Shown here one piece after another: positions 9,001-15,000 of a stretch of DNA of 17,093 nt; position 1 is the stretch's first letter, and every line of letters starts with the position of its first letter. The position numbers were made by a program. This DNA is from a virus (taxonomy: Duplodnaviria; Heunggongvirae; Uroviricota; Caudoviricetes). The stretch lies in IMG/VR virus record IMGVR_UViG_2537561716_000030, one strand, 5' to 3'.

Positions 9001-12000
9001 GCAGTTCAGGACGCGGCTTCGCCTTCAGCTCATCCATCACCGCCTGTCGCTTCGCCTGTTCATCCAGTTCATTCAACAGCTGGCTGGCAGCTTCCCGGCG
9101 ATGAGCTGCGGATGCGTCACCCTCTGTTGCCATATCCGCATCAGCATACTGCTCCAGAAGCTGCTCGCGATTCATCCCCTGCATGGATTCACGATGCTGC
9201 GCCACCGGATCAACAGATTCTGGTTGCGGGGCTGCGTCGTCCTGCTGCACGGTTTCAGCATCACGCATGGCTGCTTCTTCTGCGGCCTGACGTCTGCCAC
9301 GATATCCGGCAACCGCACCGGATGGAGCCCCCATCGCAGCACCAAAGGCTGCACCTTCGATCGTTGCGTCAGCCACGCCCTCCCACGGTGACACATCCAT
9401 TCCGGCGGTCTCACGCAATGCCGTGTTTTCCTGATAGCGTGAATAGCCGCCCTGCGCCGCATTAATCGCCCCCTGTTCCGTGGCATTTCTGACAATGCCG
9501 CTTTTAACGGTCTTCGCTGTGCCTCGTGTCACCAGATTAAACAGTTGTGCGTCACCCAGTTTTGCCGCCATGGCATTCACAGCCAGCAATTCAGGATCGG
9601 TTGCCAGCTGCGCGCGCACCTCATCGGCAACACGCTCTTTTGCCAGATCCATTTTCTGGCGATCAGTAAGCTGTGCGTGCTGCGGGTCGGCGTCAATGGA
9701 CAAAAACGTCTGCTGAAATTTCGGTGACTGCGCCAGCTCAGAGTAATCCGCATTAAGAACAGCATCTGCTGCCGCCATTGCACTCTGCCCCTGTGCACTG
9801 GCTGTGGAATGGGTGATCAGGCCCGCCTGGAATAAATCCGGCATTTTTTTATCGACAGCTTCTGCTGCCAGTGCCGTGGCTCTTTCCGGCTGCATCCCTG
9901 CCGCGATGTATTTTTTCTCCAGCCCGGCGGTCAGCATTTTTCGCAGTGTGACATCACCCACCTTTTTAGCCACACCGCCAGCAACCATATCAGGTACAAG
10001 CGCACCAATCAGGTTTACACCCTTCGCCACCCAGACCGCAGAATCATCATAGCCTTCGGTCATCGGCGTATTCAGCGCACGAACTGCACCCGGCGACATC
10101 TTACCGGTCAGCCATTCATCAGTGGCTTTAGCACCATCACTGACAGCCTTACCGGTTGCCTTCAGACCTTTACCGACAGTATCAGTAACCGCGTTTTTGC
10201 CATCAGGCAGGGTATCGATGACCTCATCAGCCCCCCTGCTGCCACCGGCAAAAATATCCTGCACAGTTGCGACACCCGGCAGCCCCATACGGCTGAACTC
10301 ATTTAAAATACGCGCCCCTGTTTTTACCGGGCTCTGAATCATCGCATCACCGAGTCCACGGGCCATTTCCCCTGTTCCCCGGACGGACTGGGCGAAACCT
10401 TTACCCATTGTTGGCAATACATCGCCCAGGCTGAACGACGTACTGTTATCCTTCCAGCGATTCGGATCAGAGAAAAATGCTTCATAGCTGTCAGTTTCGC
10501 CGGGTTGCTGAATGTTCAGGCTGTTACGATTCTGGTTACCGAGTTGCGCCTCAGGACGCTGTTCCTCTGAATAGGCCATACAGACTCCATAAAAAAACCG
10601 GCACAATGGCCGGGCATCAGGAAATGGTATTAATGGAATATCGTGAATTACTGGGCGTAATTCTGTTTCAGTCCACGGATAAACTGAGATGCAGATGAAG
10701 CACTTTCATCTCTGGCCTGTTCCCCCCTAGCCTTTTGAATACGGAGAAAATTCGCATACCCGTTCTCCAGCAATTTCTGATTCTGAGGCTCCAGCATTTC
10801 AGGCTGACGGGCCGCTACATTTCTGGCAAATGACAGCTTATCAGGATCATCTCCCGCCCAGTTGATAACCTGTTGCTGAAGTTTTTGTTGCTGAATTTTC
10901 TGTTGATGCGGTTGTGAACCAGTCGCAGCATAATATTCATCCACCGCAGCCTGTGCATTACCGCCATTCTTGATCGCGTCCGCCGCTACGTTGCTGGCCC
11001 CCTTCTGAAGCTCTTTCAGAGAAAGTCCCTGCTGCTTCGGCATAAAATAACCATAATTTTTCGATATCTCTGCAAATTTGCTGCGATCCCTGACCTGAGC
11101 GATAGCCTTATCAACGGGTATCGCCAGCACGGTTTGATCATCAGGGTGCGCACTGCCGTATTCTGTTACAGGTTTATGCGCGGTGGAGCCATCGCTGTAT
11201 GTGAGATCAAGGCCAATAAGTACGTACCCTTCCTGCTGCGCCGGTACGATACTGCCAATCCTGGCCTCTTTTATCGTTTTTTCCCCGGTTGAATCAGGCA
11301 TGCCAATACGCTGTTGTAGTTCCGGGGCAAACACGCCGGAAAGCACATCGAGATTTTCCGGGGTATTCAGCGAATCGATCGCCATGTCCGGCTTATCACC
11401 AAAGATTTTTTGCAGGTTGATCACGGCCTGACCCGCTTTCGCTGCATAGCCTTCGTTTGACATAAGAATTAATGGATGTCCCTTTGGCAGCTGCCCGAAC
11501 AGACGCGTTGCAGCCTCCTGATCGCCAGCCTCAATTGCTTTTCCAAGCGCTTCCATTAGTGGCTGGCTATGGGCAATCATATCGTTATACTCAAGCCGTC
11601 GCTGGTTGTATTTTTCCAGTTGCAGTCTCTGCTGAGATAGCCCAAGTGACGCATTTCGATAATTCTGCGCTGCTTTGTGTTCCCTCTCTTTCAGCGCATA
11701 TTCACGGTCAGCATTCCTGACATTAAGATCATATGTACGCTGATCATTCTCTTTTCGGTGCTCAAACTGCGACTGCGCAAATTCAAAATCGCGCTCGTTA
11801 TTTTTCTGTTGCTGAGCAAGCTGTGCTTCTCGCAAACCAAGCTCCTTACGACGGGTCATTGCCTGGTCAACGGTGCTGAATCCGGCAAGTAACCCCTGTG
11901 CAAATCCGCTCATTCACCACTCCTTAAAACAAAGCGCCTGCAATGCCGCCAATCACAGCACCAGCAGCTATCCCGACGGGACCAGCCCATGCTCCGAGCG

Positions 12001-15000
12001 TGGCCCCCATTGCAGCGCTGGAGCCTGCCACAGATGCACCCACAGCAGCCCCCGTACCAATGCCCGTGGCGATATTCTGTTTTTTCTGAGCTTTCTGCTG
12101 CGCCGCCATCATCTTGTTTGACGCCTCAATTTCTTCACGTCGTCTGTCTGCCTCGCTTATTCCCTGTAATGCCTCACGCCGCGACTGATTTGCAATATCC
12201 AGTAAACCGTATCCCATATTTCCTCCTTACGCTGCCACCAGTTGTCCGCCAACACTCAGTTTCTGTCTTGCCGGTGCAGAAGCCCCCGTCAGAATATTCA
12301 TCTGGCGATCCTGTTCGGCTTCACGGATACCATTTTTCGCGCCAGCAATTGCCAGGGCATTACGTAACCCCAGCGTATTACTGTCGGGATTATCCGGGCG
12401 GCTTACCCCGTATCTCGCCATCTGGTTATCCTGCGCCATCTGCGCTGTACGGAGACTGGAAGTGGCAAGGCCGCCCACCCGGGCAAGCTGTGCATTCATC
12501 AGGCTGTTGTTCTCGCCAAGGTCAGCCAGCCTTGCTACACGGGGTAAATATCTGGTGCGCCAGTCGTCGTATTGCTGGCGGGTCAGCGCTGCGGATGTCT
12601 GCCAGTCCCCCTGAGGGCGGGCTGCTCCGGTATAACCGTATCTCGCAAGTGTTTCGTATTTACCGTACTCCATAATCACAGTCTCCAGTTCTGAGCCTGA
12701 TACTGAATGGCATTAGCGCCGGTGCCAGGTGTTTTAGCACCGCCACTTCCTCCGCTACCACCAGCCTTATGCATCGCATATGCACCTACCGCACCCAAAC
12801 CAGCGCCAACAAGAGAGGCTCGCCCCTGCTGTTTCGTAAACGCAGCCTGTGCGTCCGATTTAGCTTTTGCCAGACTGCTGTCTGCCAGCGAGTTAAAACT
12901 CTGTAACGCATCCGCCTTCTGACCTGAACCGAGAGCTGCAACATCCTGTAGCCCGGCAACATACTTATCTGCCTGCGATACCTGCCCCCGTGTGGTTGTG
13001 TCAATCTGCCCGGTTACCTGATCACTCTGGTTCGCATTCATTACCGCGTTAAAGCGACCACTGGACGGGTCAACACCGGACTGAGCAAGATTACCCGCCA
13101 GCTCCTTCCGTGCTTCGCCAAACTGTTTCTGATACCCCAGATTTGTGGTGCCAGCAATATTGTCGTACTGCTGCTCACTGTTCAGGTCATCGACCTTTTC
13201 CATGAAGTTATCTTCAGCCGGGCGGAGGATATTTTTGTAATCCTGCCACCCTTTCCAGGCCACTTCTTCCTGTGCTATTTGCGCTGCTGTTGGTTTTACT
13301 TTGGTATCACCACCACCTTTACTTCCACCCATAATGGCCCCCTGGATAATAAAAAAACCCTGCCGGAGCAGGGTCAGAATGTGAATTGCAATGTTGGTTT
13401 AAACACGATGATGAAAACTGTGGCAGTCAGACCGCTATCCTGAACACCATGAAGCCATCCTCATCATCCGGCATTCGCTCAAAGCCCAGACGTTTTCCCA
13501 GCCGGATAAATCCCCGCCTTGCCGTATGAAATTCAGCCCAACGTCCGCCAGCCAGACGGGTTAATGTCTTCACCTCCGGCAGATAACGCTCAACACTGTT
13601 ACTCCCCGTACACACGCCCAGCAACACCAGAACATAAGGGATACCATCAGCACTGAGCACAGAACGCAGCACCAGAAAGCCATCAGGTGCCTCAAAACAA
13701 AACGCCTGCTTTTTAAGGCAGGCGTCTTTAACTTCATTCATAAATTCAGGGTTGCGGGAATTTCTCACCACACGCTGCATATACCGGAGAATTTTATCGT
13801 TCATTCTCTCACCTGAAACGGGTGCCATATCGGCTGAACCTCAGCAACCAGTTGACGGGGACTTTCGTCCCCGCCGCGGTTTTCCTACTGCTTACACTGT
13901 AAGAACGCCGCAAACTCCGCTCCCCACAAATTCAGCCGGAACTCACACAACGAGCCGTGTAACATCCAGATGGTGAAGATAACCGTCATACAAATTGTGA
14001 CGGTGATAAGCGATTTTTGCGACATAGCGCTTGCCTCCTGAGTGGAGAGGCGCTAACCTTCTACTTGTCAAGGTACGAAGTGTTAGGGCCTCGGGTTAAC
14101 GTTAAGTTGACTCGGGGCCTTTCCACATCAGGCCTTCAGGTTCACCCTCCAGCCATCAGCCGAAAGGCACCCACGCATAATTTACGGTTTTTGCCCTGTA
14201 CGGGCAATAAAAAACCCGCCATCACAGCGGGTAGTAAACGGTTACCGGATACAGGTTAGAATTTCAGGCCAATGCCAGCAGTAATTCCACTCGTGCGCCA
14301 GTCGCCAGAGCCGGAACCTTCGTAAGCCACATCCAGTGTAACACTCTCATTCAGGTTAAACTGTGCACCTGCAGCCCACGCAAGGGAGTTTTTTTTCGTG
14401 CTGTTGCTTTCAGAAAATCCGCCACTACTGTTAATATTGTCCTTAATTTTCAGGTCAGCGCTAACTTTAGCAACGCCCATCCCTGCCATCGCATATAAGC
14501 TCATGTACTGATTAACCCGCCATGAAGGCCCCGCTAACAGACTCCAGTAATTCGCCCTGATATCCGTTCTGGCAGAAGCTGCCGGATTCTTAATCTTCCT
14601 GGTATGATCGGCTGACTGCACATCAATAAATGTCTGTGAGTTAGTGAGAGAACGCGTCCATGTAAAAGAGGTGATAACGCCAAAATCATCCGTTATCTCG
14701 TAGCGATACCTGATATTAATGCCCTGTGGATTTTTATCCTTGCCTTCATATCCACTGACCCGACCATCTGTATATTCGCCCAATGAAGAAAAGTAGTTTC
14801 TGTTGACGAAATGACTGAAAGTCTCCCTGTTATGAGCAGTCGCATCCTTTACAAAATCCTTCAGTCCCGGAAACTGAAAGTGCGCATACCCCAGAGAAAT
14901 TGTATGGTTTCCTTCTGCTGCATGTGCAGATAAATTTACACAGGCAATCCCGGAGATTGCACACACAACCAGTGTTGCTATACTCTTCATTTAAGATATC

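What the first reader, a model, noticed from the sequence alone, without database searches (positions are those of the whole stretch)
10585..13373. Terminator placed directly against the next gene's Shine-Dalgarno, twice inside the module
At 13351-13373 and again at 10591-10613 a hairpin plus U7 tract on the minus strand is followed within a few nt by the SD and start of the next gene (218-aa gene; giant ORF). There is no room for a promoter between terminator and SD, so expression of the module, and separately of the giant ORF, must depend on terminator read-through. This is the arrangement expected for genes switched on by processive antitermination (for example lambdoid Q-type late transcription) or an attenuation mechanism. 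It implies the giant protein is kept silent until a specific signal such as induction.
Basis: seen in the sequence. Interest (0 to 1): 0.6.

Follow-up and report, generated by a model that had tools for sequence, protein, structure and literature searches.

The report
Terminators inside Shiga-toxin phage late operon
The two hairpin-plus-U7 sites are real, conserved transcription terminators inside the late operon of a 933W/Sp5-type Shiga-toxin prophage, and the essential virion genes behind them can only be transcribed by polymerase that reads through, which is ordinary lambdoid Q-antitermination logic rather than a new switch.

Summary
Both sites are GC-rich hairpins followed by T7 on the coding (minus) strand. 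Their T-tracts end 2 nt and 7 nt before the next gene's Shine-Dalgarno, and no promoter fits in between. Compact terminators are about 10-fold enriched on this strand, and both hairpins keep pairing through compensatory substitutions in relatives.

The window is the right end of a 933W/Sp5/P27-type Stx2a prophage. In identical phages, a Q antiterminator gene lies about 26-29 kb upstream and nearly every gene in between is co-directional. About 12 similar intergenic terminators sit along that late operon, and four of them abut an SD.

Published data fit read-through on induction. The 421-aa gene and the giant gene are essential for infectious Sp5 particles. The giant gene is induction-linked, whereas lom, 3.6 kb upstream, is constitutive.

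Termination and Q-dependence at these exact sites remain untested.

New minor points: a terminator in front of the giant gene is conserved across distant Aeromonas and Vibrio relatives, and a covarying terminator-like hairpin lies inside the preceding gene, ORF75.

Interest is low to moderate.

The parts
10598..10613 (-). TERM1 hairpin: CCGGC-CATTGT-GCCGG, 5 bp in this window and 6 bp in most relatives
   Evidence: Pairing is kept through G-C to A-U and G-U changes in relatives.
10591..10597 (-). TERM1 U7 tract
   Evidence: The length is 7-9 nt in relatives.
10577..10588 (-). SD GGAG (10588-10585) and ATG start (10579-10577) of the giant gene
   Evidence: GGAGTCTGTATG is invariant in relatives. 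P27 and RefSeq Sakai annotate the same start.
2204..10579 (-). Giant ORF (2,791 aa; Sp5 ORF80/ECs1242), a polyvalent virion-associated protein
   Evidence: Pfam LPD38, LPD5, LPD1 and MuF_C. It is essential for Sp5 infectivity and tail formation (PMC5155283). Its expression is induction-linked (PMC3342100).
10648..11913 (-). 421-aa gene (Sp5 ORF79/ECs1241), the gene upstream of TERM1
   Evidence: It is essential for Sp5 tail formation. Its homologue is annotated as a virion structural protein in phiARM81mr.
11924..12217 (-). 97-aa gene encoding a two-TM protein (ORF78)
12227..12673 (-). 148-aa gene (ORF77)
12676..13332 (-). 218-aa gene (ORF76/ECs1238), the first gene after TERM2
   Evidence: Deleting ORF76 strongly reduces lysogenisation, taking ORF76 to be this gene; that mapping is inferred from gene order (ORF79=ECs1241, ORF80=ECs1242), not read from the paper's table.
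13330..13343 (-). SD AGGGGG (13343-13338) and ATG (13332-13330) of the 218-aa gene
13351..13375 (-). TERM2: hairpin GACCCTGC-TCCG-GCAGGGTT plus U7 (13357-13351)
   Evidence: The stem is invariant in 44 close loci, which give 10 distinct sequences. More distant hok/lom-free relatives carry ACCTGC/GCAGGT, a C-G to A-U change.
13427..13804 (-). ORF75 (125 aa; ECs1237), the first gene of the conserved ORF75-to-giant module
   Evidence: It is syntenic, at 41% and 21% aa identity, in Aeromonas and Vibrio phages.
13695..13724 (-). Terminator-like hairpin (CGCCTGC...GCAGGCG) plus TTTTGTTT inside ORF75
   Evidence: -17.8 kcal/mol for the extended stem, z = -4.05. It is conserved almost family-wide with covariation that changes the amino acids.
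14209..14232 (-). Terminator after lom: ACCCGC-TGTGA-GCGGGT (RNAfold) plus T6
13885..14172 (-). hok/mok-type toxin locus: the leader (14172-14014) matches the Rfam sok model below threshold, and the hok CDS is 14025-13885

Best explanation
Both elements are genuine Rho-independent terminators embedded in the roughly 37-kb late transcription unit of a lambdoid, short-tailed Stx2a phage of the 933W/Sp5/P27 type.

RNA polymerase that has not been modified by the phage Q protein stops at them. That includes polymerase starting at the constitutive lom and hok promoters just upstream, and polymerase from spurious starts. ORF76-79 and the 8.4-kb giant gene therefore stay off in the lysogen.

After induction, Q loads onto polymerase at pR'. 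This terminator-resistant polymerase runs through tR' and the dozen or so terminators along the late operon, including these two. It thereby transcribes genes the virion needs (ORF79 and ORF80 are essential).

Shown here or in papers:
- the anatomy of both sites;
- that the region is non-coding;
- enrichment over chance;
- conservation with compensatory changes;
- absence of a promoter;
- the Q gene and co-directional layout in identical phages;
- essentiality of ORF79 and ORF80;
- induction-linked expression.

Inferred:
- that termination really occurs at these sites without Q;
- that Q-modified polymerase is what reads through;
- that silencing in the lysogen is the selected function.
For: Anatomy and energies. 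Enrichment on the coding strand: 4 sites against 0.42 +/- 0.69 expected.

TERM1 is 100% paired in 6 distinct variants, with 2 pairs changed on both sides; slid controls give 25-44%. TERM2 shows an outer-pair C-G to A-U change in distant relatives.

The region is non-coding: T-tract length polymorphism and a frame-breaking G indel. No promoter-like site lies at either junction.

The phage genome map places Q (PF06530, 1e-50) upstream with co-directional late genes. About 12 strong intergenic coding-strand terminators lie in the P27 late operon. Those after the major head gene and after gp70 also abut the next RBS.

Literature:
- pR' is constitutive, terminates at tR', and Q relieves this (PMC7547250).
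- ORF79 and ORF80 are essential (PMC5155283).
- lom is constitutive but the giant ORF is induction-linked (PMC3342100).
- Genes behind TERM2 and TERM1 are induced 8.3x, 7.0x, 7.3x and 5.6x (PMC4651098).

Family-wide selection: 43 of 48 distinct ORF79-to-giant junctions from relatives carry a terminator, built from many different hairpin sequences. In at least 28 of them the T-tract ends 22 nt or less from the start codon.
Against: There is no direct 3'-end, reporter or in vitro data for these two sites.

TERM1 in this window is minimal (5 bp, -8.8 kcal/mol, z only -1.7), so it may terminate weakly.

The giant gene's RNA-seq induction (5.6x) was not statistically significant. Fold induction falls steadily along the operon, from about 130x at S to 5.6x, so read-through may be incomplete.

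TERM1-type and ORF75-internal terminators are conserved in Aeromonas and Vibrio relatives where I could not identify a Q protein. TERM2 homologues exist in relatives with no lom or hok nearby. Insulation from morons therefore cannot be the original or only function.

Q lies outside the 17-kb window. Its presence is inferred from phages identical to the window over 2057-16757.
Confidence: 0.75

Rival explanations
1. The terminators act mainly as graded attenuators during lytic growth. Even Q-modified polymerase is partly lost at each site, so mRNA dosage steps down from tail-fibre genes to ORF76-79 to the giant gene. This would match the low copy number expected for internal virion proteins. 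It is compatible with the best explanation rather than exclusive of it.
For: Fold induction in phi24B falls in steps: 15.7 for vb_24B_41/42, then 8.3, 7.0 and 7.3 behind TERM2, then 5.6 behind TERM1. A terminator directly before the giant gene is conserved across the phage family whether or not morons are upstream. Authors of the phage L genome paper list partial termination as one possible role of intra-operon terminators (PMC8022706).
Against: Fold change is not absolute abundance. The decline begins long before these sites, so it may reflect sampling time or differing basal levels. Q-modified polymerase is known to be highly terminator-resistant (my own knowledge of lambda and phage 21 Q). 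No stoichiometry data exist for these proteins.
Confidence: 0.3
2. The hairpin-U elements work post-transcriptionally. They could act as 3' stabilisers of the upstream cistrons after endonucleolytic cleavage. They could also act as a structured insulator plus U-rich ribosome (S1) landing pad that boosts translation of the next gene.
For: The U-tract sits immediately 5' of the SD at four junctions of the late operon. The spacing and the SD are invariant in relatives. U-rich leaders as translational enhancers are known (my own knowledge).
Against: The canonical terminator geometry (GC stem directly followed by 6 or more U) is kept in lineages where 40-85 nt then separate it from the SD (Vibrio phages and others). 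Closeness to the SD is therefore not what is conserved. No processing data exist.
Confidence: 0.1
3. The module or the giant gene has its own promoter, overlapping or upstream of the terminator. Its expression would then not depend on the pR'/Q late transcript.
For: A weak sigma-70-like match (TGCACA-16-TATTAT, 9 of 12) lies inside the 421-aa gene at 10957-10930. In Vibrio phages an 85-nt spacer after the equivalent terminator holds a promoter-like TTCACC-17-TATGAT.
Against: The 10957 site is upstream of TERM1, so its transcripts would still have to pass it. Promoter-like hits in the window are fewer than in shuffles (10 against 15.4). Only 2 nt and 7 nt separate T-tract from SD. The only -10-like hexamer, TATTAT at 13351-13346, has a 0 of 6 match at -35 and would give a leader without the SD (read). 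The giant gene's expression follows induction while lom does not.
Confidence: 0.05
4. The two sites are chance hairpins next to T-runs with no function.
For: The tool's permissive scan is not enriched over shuffles: 21 found against 16.9 +/- 4.8. The z-score of the TERM1 hairpin alone is only -1.7.
Against: The strict scan shows about 10-fold enrichment on the coding strand. All strong sites are intergenic except one. There are compensatory changes. A terminator holds the same position in relatives whose neighbouring protein is only 24-49% identical, using unrelated hairpin sequences.
Confidence: 0.01

Closest known systems
Lambdoid late operon under Q antitermination (lambda, phages 21 and 82; pR'-qut-tR' of Stx phages 933W, Sp5 and H-19B)
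   Same: One constitutive late promoter is terminated close by at tR'. A Q protein (here Pfam PF06530) makes polymerase terminator-resistant, so a long co-directional array of lysis and virion genes is transcribed through any downstream terminators (PMC7547250; layout).
   Different: The known work concerns tR' and the stx/lysis end of the operon. The terminators 26-29 kb downstream studied here have not been tested, and 933W carries no feature annotation for them in this region.
Intra-operon terminators of P22-like phage L and other lambdoid late operons
   Same: These are predicted intrinsic terminators inside a late operon that has a single promoter. The authors propose the same two roles considered here: partial termination, or stopping transcripts that lack antitermination. 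They state that the roles are unknown (PMC8022706).
   Different: Here there are many more of them, about 12. Four abut the next SD. Two are shown to be conserved by compensatory change and across genera.
Morons (promoter-gene-terminator cassettes such as lambda lom and bor)
   Same: lom and the hok-type toxin just upstream behave as morons. lom is constitutively expressed and is followed by its own terminator. Their transcripts would be stopped before the late genes.
   Different: ORF75-80 are not morons. They are syntenic in Aeromonas and Vibrio phages, two are essential, and they have no promoter. TERM2 homologues occur without lom or hok upstream.
Internal operon attenuators that set gene dosage (for example the terminator between rpsU and dnaG in E. 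coli, or T-phi after T7 gene 10); cited from my own knowledge
   Same: A terminator placed between co-transcribed genes, with downstream genes needing lower expression.
   Different: Those act on ordinary or T7 polymerase with fixed partial efficiency. Here a processive antiterminator is expected to override the sites.

Membership tests
Intrinsic (Rho-independent) terminator | GC-rich stem-loop (about 5-14 bp stem, 3-8 nt loop) | tested here: met
   TERM1 has 5 GC pairs with a 6-nt loop (6 pairs in most relatives). TERM2 has 8 pairs with a 4-nt loop..
Intrinsic (Rho-independent) terminator | U-tract of about 6-8 nt directly 3' of the stem | tested here: met
   T7 at 10597-10591 and at 13357-13351. 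T6-T9 in relatives.
Intrinsic (Rho-independent) terminator | Lies on the transcribed strand, downstream of a stop codon, in non-coding sequence | tested here: met
   The sites lie 35 nt after the 421-aa gene's stop and 52 nt after ORF75's stop. Indels that are not multiples of 3 are tolerated.
Intrinsic (Rho-independent) terminator | Structure maintained by selection (compensatory substitutions) | tested here: met
   TERM1 is 100% paired, with 2 pairs changed on both sides, though this rests on only 6 distinct variants. TERM2 shows one C-G to A-U pair in three distant loci.
Intrinsic (Rho-independent) terminator | RNA 3' ends or termination at the U-tract, in vivo or in vitro | not testable with these tools
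   Term-seq data for Sakai exist (the paper gives GSE143631 for dRNA-seq and 'GSE14363' for Term-seq; PMC7547250) but cannot be read here.
Q-dependent lambdoid late operon | Q-family antiterminator gene upstream in the same phage | tested here: met
   P27 gp46 matches PF06530 with E = 1e-50. P27 is 100% identical across window 10000-14000 and 99.9% over window 2057-16757. Q itself lies outside the window.
Q-dependent lambdoid late operon | pR' with a nearby tR' just downstream of Q | tested here: inconclusive
   Two hairpin-T sites follow Q in P27, at L002 9414-9450 and 9630-9660. The position of tR', 258 nt from pR', is taken from PMC7547250. I did not map pR' or qut.
Q-dependent lambdoid late operon | Co-directional genes from pR' to the feature | tested here: met
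   In the P27 annotation all late genes from Q to the giant ORF are on one strand, except bor and the engineered cat cassette.
Q-dependent lambdoid late operon | Downstream genes switched on by induction | tested here: met
   From the literature, not measured here: 7-8x for ORF76, 77 and 79 and 5.6x (not significant) for the giant gene; qPCR shows the giant ORF is induction-linked.
Q-dependent lambdoid late operon | Read-through at these sites requires Q | not testable with these tools
   This needs a Q or qut mutant, or a reporter assay.
Moron (independently expressed insert) | Own promoter, dispensable, patchy distribution among related phages | tested here: not met
   For ORF75 to the giant gene: there is no promoter, ORF79 and ORF80 are essential, and the genes are syntenic in Aeromonas and Vibrio phages. 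lom and hok upstream do fit.
Conditional attenuator or riboswitch leader | Alternative antiterminator structure, leader peptide or known RNA family upstream of the terminator | tested here: not met
   Rfam gives no match at either site. The 81-nt and 106-nt contexts fold no better than shuffles and show no competing helix. The spacer upstream of TERM1 is not conserved between lineages.

The most novel reading that the evidence does not exclude
The ORF75-to-giant-gene module of this whole family of lambdoid podophages (E. coli, Aeromonas, Vibrio) is guarded by a conserved series of terminators. One lies inside ORF75 and is kept by covariation that overrides the amino-acid sequence. One lies directly before the giant polyvalent-protein gene. 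In the enterobacterial branch, TERM2 lies between them.

This would be a selected multi-gate device, not incidental operon punctuation. The intragenic gate would be bypassed only when a ribosome closely follows polymerase, or when polymerase is antiterminated. The device would make expression of a costly or toxic injected giant protein strictly conditional and dosed.
Probability: 0.25. Interest if true: 0.5.

Novelty: new member of a known kind. Interest (0 to 1): 0.3.

Why it matters
The result explains a published puzzle: the 8-kb gene of Stx phages follows induction although it lies downstream of constitutively expressed lom (Riley et al. 2012). It also corrects the start codon annotated for that gene in 933W and phi24B.

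It adds concrete, testable cases to the open question of what intra-operon terminators do in lambdoid late operons. Here they are conserved by compensatory change and across genera.

For Shiga-toxin phage biology the practical consequence is modest. Production of infectious particles, like toxin production, depends on Q-modified polymerase surviving about a dozen terminators over 37 kb.

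Tried and rejected
- Rfam at gathering threshold found nothing in the window. At E-value threshold it found only a sub-threshold sok match in the hok leader and chance-level hits at hairpins.
- A riboswitch or leader-peptide attenuator was rejected: no alternative fold and no conserved leader.
- A promoter inside either gap was rejected (and manual reading).
- The search for homologous proteins with the 421-aa protein returned only close E. 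coli relatives among the 120 listed and added nothing.
- The genome-contig scan with an alignment gave one 552-bp contig and no usable locus.
- I tried to recognise a Q-like antiterminator in Aeromonas phiARM81mr (p40 and p41, just upstream of the holin gene). Pfam and PHROGs gave no such assignment, so whether the distant relatives use Q-type antitermination is unknown.
- 'TERM2 exists to stop hok/lom transcripts' was rejected as the sole explanation, because TERM2 homologues occur in relatives without hok or lom within 2.5 kb upstream.
- I could not obtain Term-seq peak tables, so no direct 3'-end evidence was used.

Full report
**What the window is.** The window is the right end of a short-tailed Stx2a-converting prophage of the 933W/Sp5/P27 type (Sepvirinae, Traversvirus). 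Window 10000-14000 is 100% identical to phages phi345, PA28, P27 and Stx2a_F723. Identity to such phages runs from 2057 to 16757. The giant ORF is therefore the last phage gene before the prophage-host junction. All phage genes in the window are on the minus strand. Their order, is:
- tail fibre gene
- 92-aa gene
- 205-aa gene
- lom (14990-14256)
- a hok-type toxin (14025-13885)
- ORF75 (13804-13427)
- ORF76, 218 aa (13332-12676)
- ORF77 (12673-12227)
- ORF78 (12217-11924)
- ORF79, 421 aa (11913-10648)
- the giant ORF (10579-2204)

I matched Sp5 gene numbers by gene order. ORF79 = ECs1241 and ORF80 = ECs1242 are stated in PMC5155283. ORF75-78 = ECs1237-1240 is my inference.

**The observation.** Both sites are as described.
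- TERM1 is CCGGC-CATTGT-GCCGG (10613-10598), then T7 (10597-10591), AT, GGAG, 5 nt, and ATG at 10579.
- TERM2 is GACCCTGC-TCCG-GCAGGGTT (13375-13356) with T7 (13357-13351), then 7 nt, AGGGGG, 5 nt, and ATG at 13332.
- Hairpin energies are -8.8 kcal/mol (z = -1.7) for TERM1 and -15.0 kcal/mol (z = -4.96) for TERM2.

The tool's permissive terminator scan is not enriched over shuffles (21 against 16.9 +/- 4.8). A stricter scan of my own required a stem-loop of at most 26 nt, dG of -7.5 or lower, and at least 6 T in 8. It finds 4 sites on the coding strand against 0.42 +/- 0.69 in 60 dinucleotide shuffles, and 1 on the other strand. The four are the terminator after lom (14232-14209), a site inside ORF75 (13724-13695), TERM2 and TERM1.

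**Conservation.** I examined 48 IMG/VR loci whose ORF79 protein is 74-100% identical to the window's.
- TERM1 occurs as CCCGGC/GCCGGG (the majority form; the window lacks one G), as CCCGGT/GCCGGG, and as GCCCGAC/GTCGGGC. This amounts to one G-U variant and one G-C to A-U double change.
- The T-tract is 7-9 nt and GGAGTCTGTATG is invariant.
- Formally, all cells pair and 2 of 7 pairs change on both sides; slid controls give 25-44% pairing. This rests on only six distinct variants.
- The TERM2 stem is invariant in the close set and only the loop varies. More distant enterobacterial-type relatives carry ACCTGC-TTYG-GCAGGT. That is a C-G to A-U change, still followed by T6, an SD and ATG.

**The gap before the giant gene is non-coding.** 933W and phi24B annotate the giant gene from an ATG inside the hairpin. 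In the window a 1-nt G deletion puts that ATG out of frame. The T-tract length also varies by 1-2 nt among relatives. P27 and RefSeq Sakai use the ATG after GGAG. The true start is therefore 10579, and the hairpin and U-tract are untranslated.

**Whether a promoter could hide there.** No sigma-70-like match lies at or across either terminator. The only -10-like hexamer is TATTAT at 13351-13346. Its -35 position reads ACCCTG, a 0 of 6 match. It would also start the mRNA inside the SD (read). A weak match inside ORF79 (10957-10930) is upstream of TERM1. Any transcript of ORF76 or of the giant gene must therefore cross a terminator.

**Context that explains it.** In P27 a Q antiterminator (PF06530, E = 1e-50) lies about 26 kb upstream of TERM2 and about 29 kb upstream of TERM1. 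Two hairpin-T sites follow it. After them come the tRNAs, the stx position, nanS-p, the lysis genes, terminase, portal, head and tail genes, and then this region. All are co-directional except bor.

pR' is constitutive, stops at tR' 258 nt downstream, and is released by Q on induction (PMC7547250). My scan of the P27 late operon finds 21 coding-strand candidates against 12 on the other strand. About 12 of the coding-strand ones are strong and intergenic. They lie after Q and tR', after the stx cassette, before the holin gene, after the lysozyme, portal, major head, gp70 and tail-fibre gp65 genes, after lom, and at TERM2 and TERM1.

Two more of these sites have their T-tract against the next RBS. 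One is after the major head gene (GCCGGGTTTTCGCCCGGC TTTTT CAGGAG). The other is after gp70.

**Experimental literature.**
- In Sp5, in-frame deletions of ORF79 (ECs1241) and ORF80 (ECs1242, 2,793 aa) abolish plaques and lysogens. DNA-filled heads still form, so both genes are needed for tail formation. Both deletions are complemented in trans. Deletion of ORF76 strongly reduces lysogenisation (PMC5155283).
- In phi24B, whose ORF79 protein is 95% identical to the window's, lom is expressed equally in lysogens and in induced cells. The 8-kb ORF (clone CM7, 49148-57571) responds to induction. The authors called this surprising because it lies downstream of lom (PMC3342100).
- RNA-seq fold changes on norfloxacin fall along the operon: S 134, R 118, stx 96, small terminase 75, portal 30, vb_24B_39 22, vb_24B_41 (listed twice) 15.8 and 15.7, lom 3.0 (not significant), vb_24B_44 (the 218-aa gene) 8.3, vb_24B_45 7.0, vb_24B_47 (the 421-aa gene) 7.3 and vb_24B_48 (the giant gene) 5.6 (not significant) (PMC4651098, Table S4).

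**Mechanism.** The best-supported reading has three parts.
- These are real intrinsic terminators.
- Unmodified polymerase stops at them, including polymerase from the lom and hok promoters just upstream.
- Q-modified polymerase from pR' reads through them.

This accounts for constitutive lom next to an induction-dependent giant gene. It also accounts for essential genes sitting behind terminators with no promoter. What is inferred rather than shown is termination at these sites, the Q-dependence of read-through, and which selective benefit maintains them.

The main rival is compatible with this reading. It says the sites also bleed off some antiterminated polymerase and so set dosage. The stepwise fall in fold induction is consistent with that but does not prove it. 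The phage L paper states that the roles of such intra-operon terminators are unknown and offers the same two options (PMC8022706).

**Wider comparison.** The module from ORF75 to the giant gene is syntenic in Vibrio phages D460 and K250 g1 and in Aeromonas phage phiARM81mr. There the ORF79 homologue is only about 24-27% identical. The phiARM81mr record labels the ORF76, ORF77, ORF79 and giant homologues 'putative virion structural protein'. The giant protein carries Pfam LPD38, LPD5, LPD1 and MuF_C domains, so it is a polyvalent protein.

In all three phages a terminator follows the ORF79 homologue.
- In the Vibrio phages it is AGCCCGC-CTAGT-GCGGGTT TTTCTTTTG, followed by about 85 nt that hold a promoter-like site.
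- In Aeromonas it is GCCCCGA...TCGGGGC TTTTCTTTTG, then 11 nt, GAGGA and ATG.

Across 72 further IMG/VR loci (24-100% identity to the Aeromonas protein), 43 of 48 distinct junctions have a terminator within 100 nt of the stop codon. These use about ten different hairpin sequences. In at least 28 of them the T-tract ends 22 nt or less from the giant gene's start. The other junctions inside the module are overlaps or gaps of about 10 nt.

A terminator directly in front of the giant gene is therefore a selected, family-wide feature. TERM2 is confined to the enterobacterial branch. Aeromonas-type and Vibrio loci have a gap of about 8 nt there. TERM2 occurs with or without lom and hok upstream. Insulation from morons therefore cannot be the only reason these terminators exist. 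I could not identify a Q protein in phiARM81mr.

**Side finding.** The hairpin plus T-tract inside ORF75 is conserved almost family-wide.
- It starts about 80 nt into the gene in the window.
- In a codon-anchored alignment (36 distinct rows shown, out of about 60 variants) the stem is either CGCCTGC/GCAGGCG (peptide A-C-x-x-K-Q-A-F) or CGCCATCC/GG(A/G)TGGCG (peptide A-I-R-N-R-M/V-A-F).
- Two adjacent pairs switch between A-U/U-A and G-C/U-G/U-A, and this changes the amino acids.
- 79% of cells pair, against 31-43% in slid controls, and 0 of 500 shuffles reach the observed covariation.
- Few independent events underlie these counts, and a few lineages lack the element.

The pattern points to selection on the nucleic-acid structure. 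The element could be a conserved intragenic terminator or attenuator at the entry to the module. I did not resolve what it does.

**Verdict.** The feature belongs to a well-known kind: intrinsic terminators inside a Q-antiterminated lambdoid late operon. It is a new, uncharacterised member of that kind, with modest extra interest from its deep positional conservation and from the intragenic hairpin.

Noticed in passing
window 13695-13724 (minus strand), inside ORF75: A terminator-like hairpin plus TTTTGTTT lies about 80 nt into the ORF75 coding sequence. It is conserved in E. coli-type and Aeromonas-type relatives with covariation that changes the encoded amino acids (TGC..CAG against ATC..ATG/GTG). 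79% of cells pair, against 31-43% in slid controls. Its function is unknown.
   Followed up: partly
L052 13408-13430; L053 about 5407-5430; L054 5877-5910; loci L058-L133: A terminator between the ORF79 homologue and the giant gene is present in 43 of 48 distinct junctions across distant Aeromonas-type, Vibrio-type and other relatives. The hairpin sequences are unrelated to one another, and the terminator often lies only 9-22 nt from the start codon.
   Followed up: yes
window 13810-14207 (minus strand): A hok/mok-type toxin locus sits between lom and ORF75. The leader at 14172-14014 matches the Rfam sok model below threshold (37.9 bits, E = 3.6e-6). There is a promoter-like TTGCCC-17-TAAATT just upstream. 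GGCACCC at 13826-13820 is complementary to the 5' GGGUGCC, like the fold-back element of hok mRNAs (recalled from memory). The ORF75 start lies right after it, so hok transcripts may run into ORF75.
   Followed up: partly
window 10579 against 10617; 933W L0134 and phi24B vb_24B_48: The giant gene's start annotated in 933W and phi24B is an ATG inside the TERM1 hairpin. The window's 1-nt G deletion puts that ATG out of frame, so the annotation is probably about 13 codons too long. P27 and RefSeq Sakai use the downstream ATG.
   Followed up: yes
L055 30211-30236 (Aeromonas phage phiARM81mr, after the portal gene): The 18-nt hairpin CCCGGCCATTGTGCCGGG followed by T6 is identical to the common allele of TERM1 in Stx phages, yet sits at a different junction in a distant phage. 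Several other terminators in both phages share a C-CAT(T/C)GT-G loop. This may be coincidence or a shared terminator type; I did not pursue it.
   Followed up: no
window 2204-10579 (minus strand): The giant protein carries LPD38, LPD5, LPD1 and MuF_C domains, marking it as a polyvalent protein, with a PHROG link to DarB-like antirestriction proteins. Yet it is reported as essential for tail formation in Sp5. Its homologue is labelled a virion structural protein in phiARM81mr.
   Followed up: partly
window 2172-2199 (minus strand): A 9-bp hairpin (CATGCCCCG...CGGGGCATG) lies just after the giant gene's stop codon but has no T-tract. The late transcript therefore has no obvious intrinsic terminator before the prophage end at about 2057.
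   Followed up: no
window 16757-17093 and 1-2056: Identity to Stx phages stops at 16757, inside the tail-fibre region. A short ORF at 16797-16931 looks like the C-terminal end of an IS3-family transposase (judged from memory, not tested). Identity to most phage records stops at 2057, which is the probable prophage-host junction. VT2phi_272, whose hit features include attR, continues to 1050.
   Followed up: no
L055 23000-42900 (phiARM81mr late region): The late region of the Aeromonas relative is also studded with coding-strand terminators: 24 terminator-like sites against 13.2 +/- 3.5 expected, about 10 of them strong. These include two in tandem after the portal gene and one before the major capsid gene.
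   Followed up: partly
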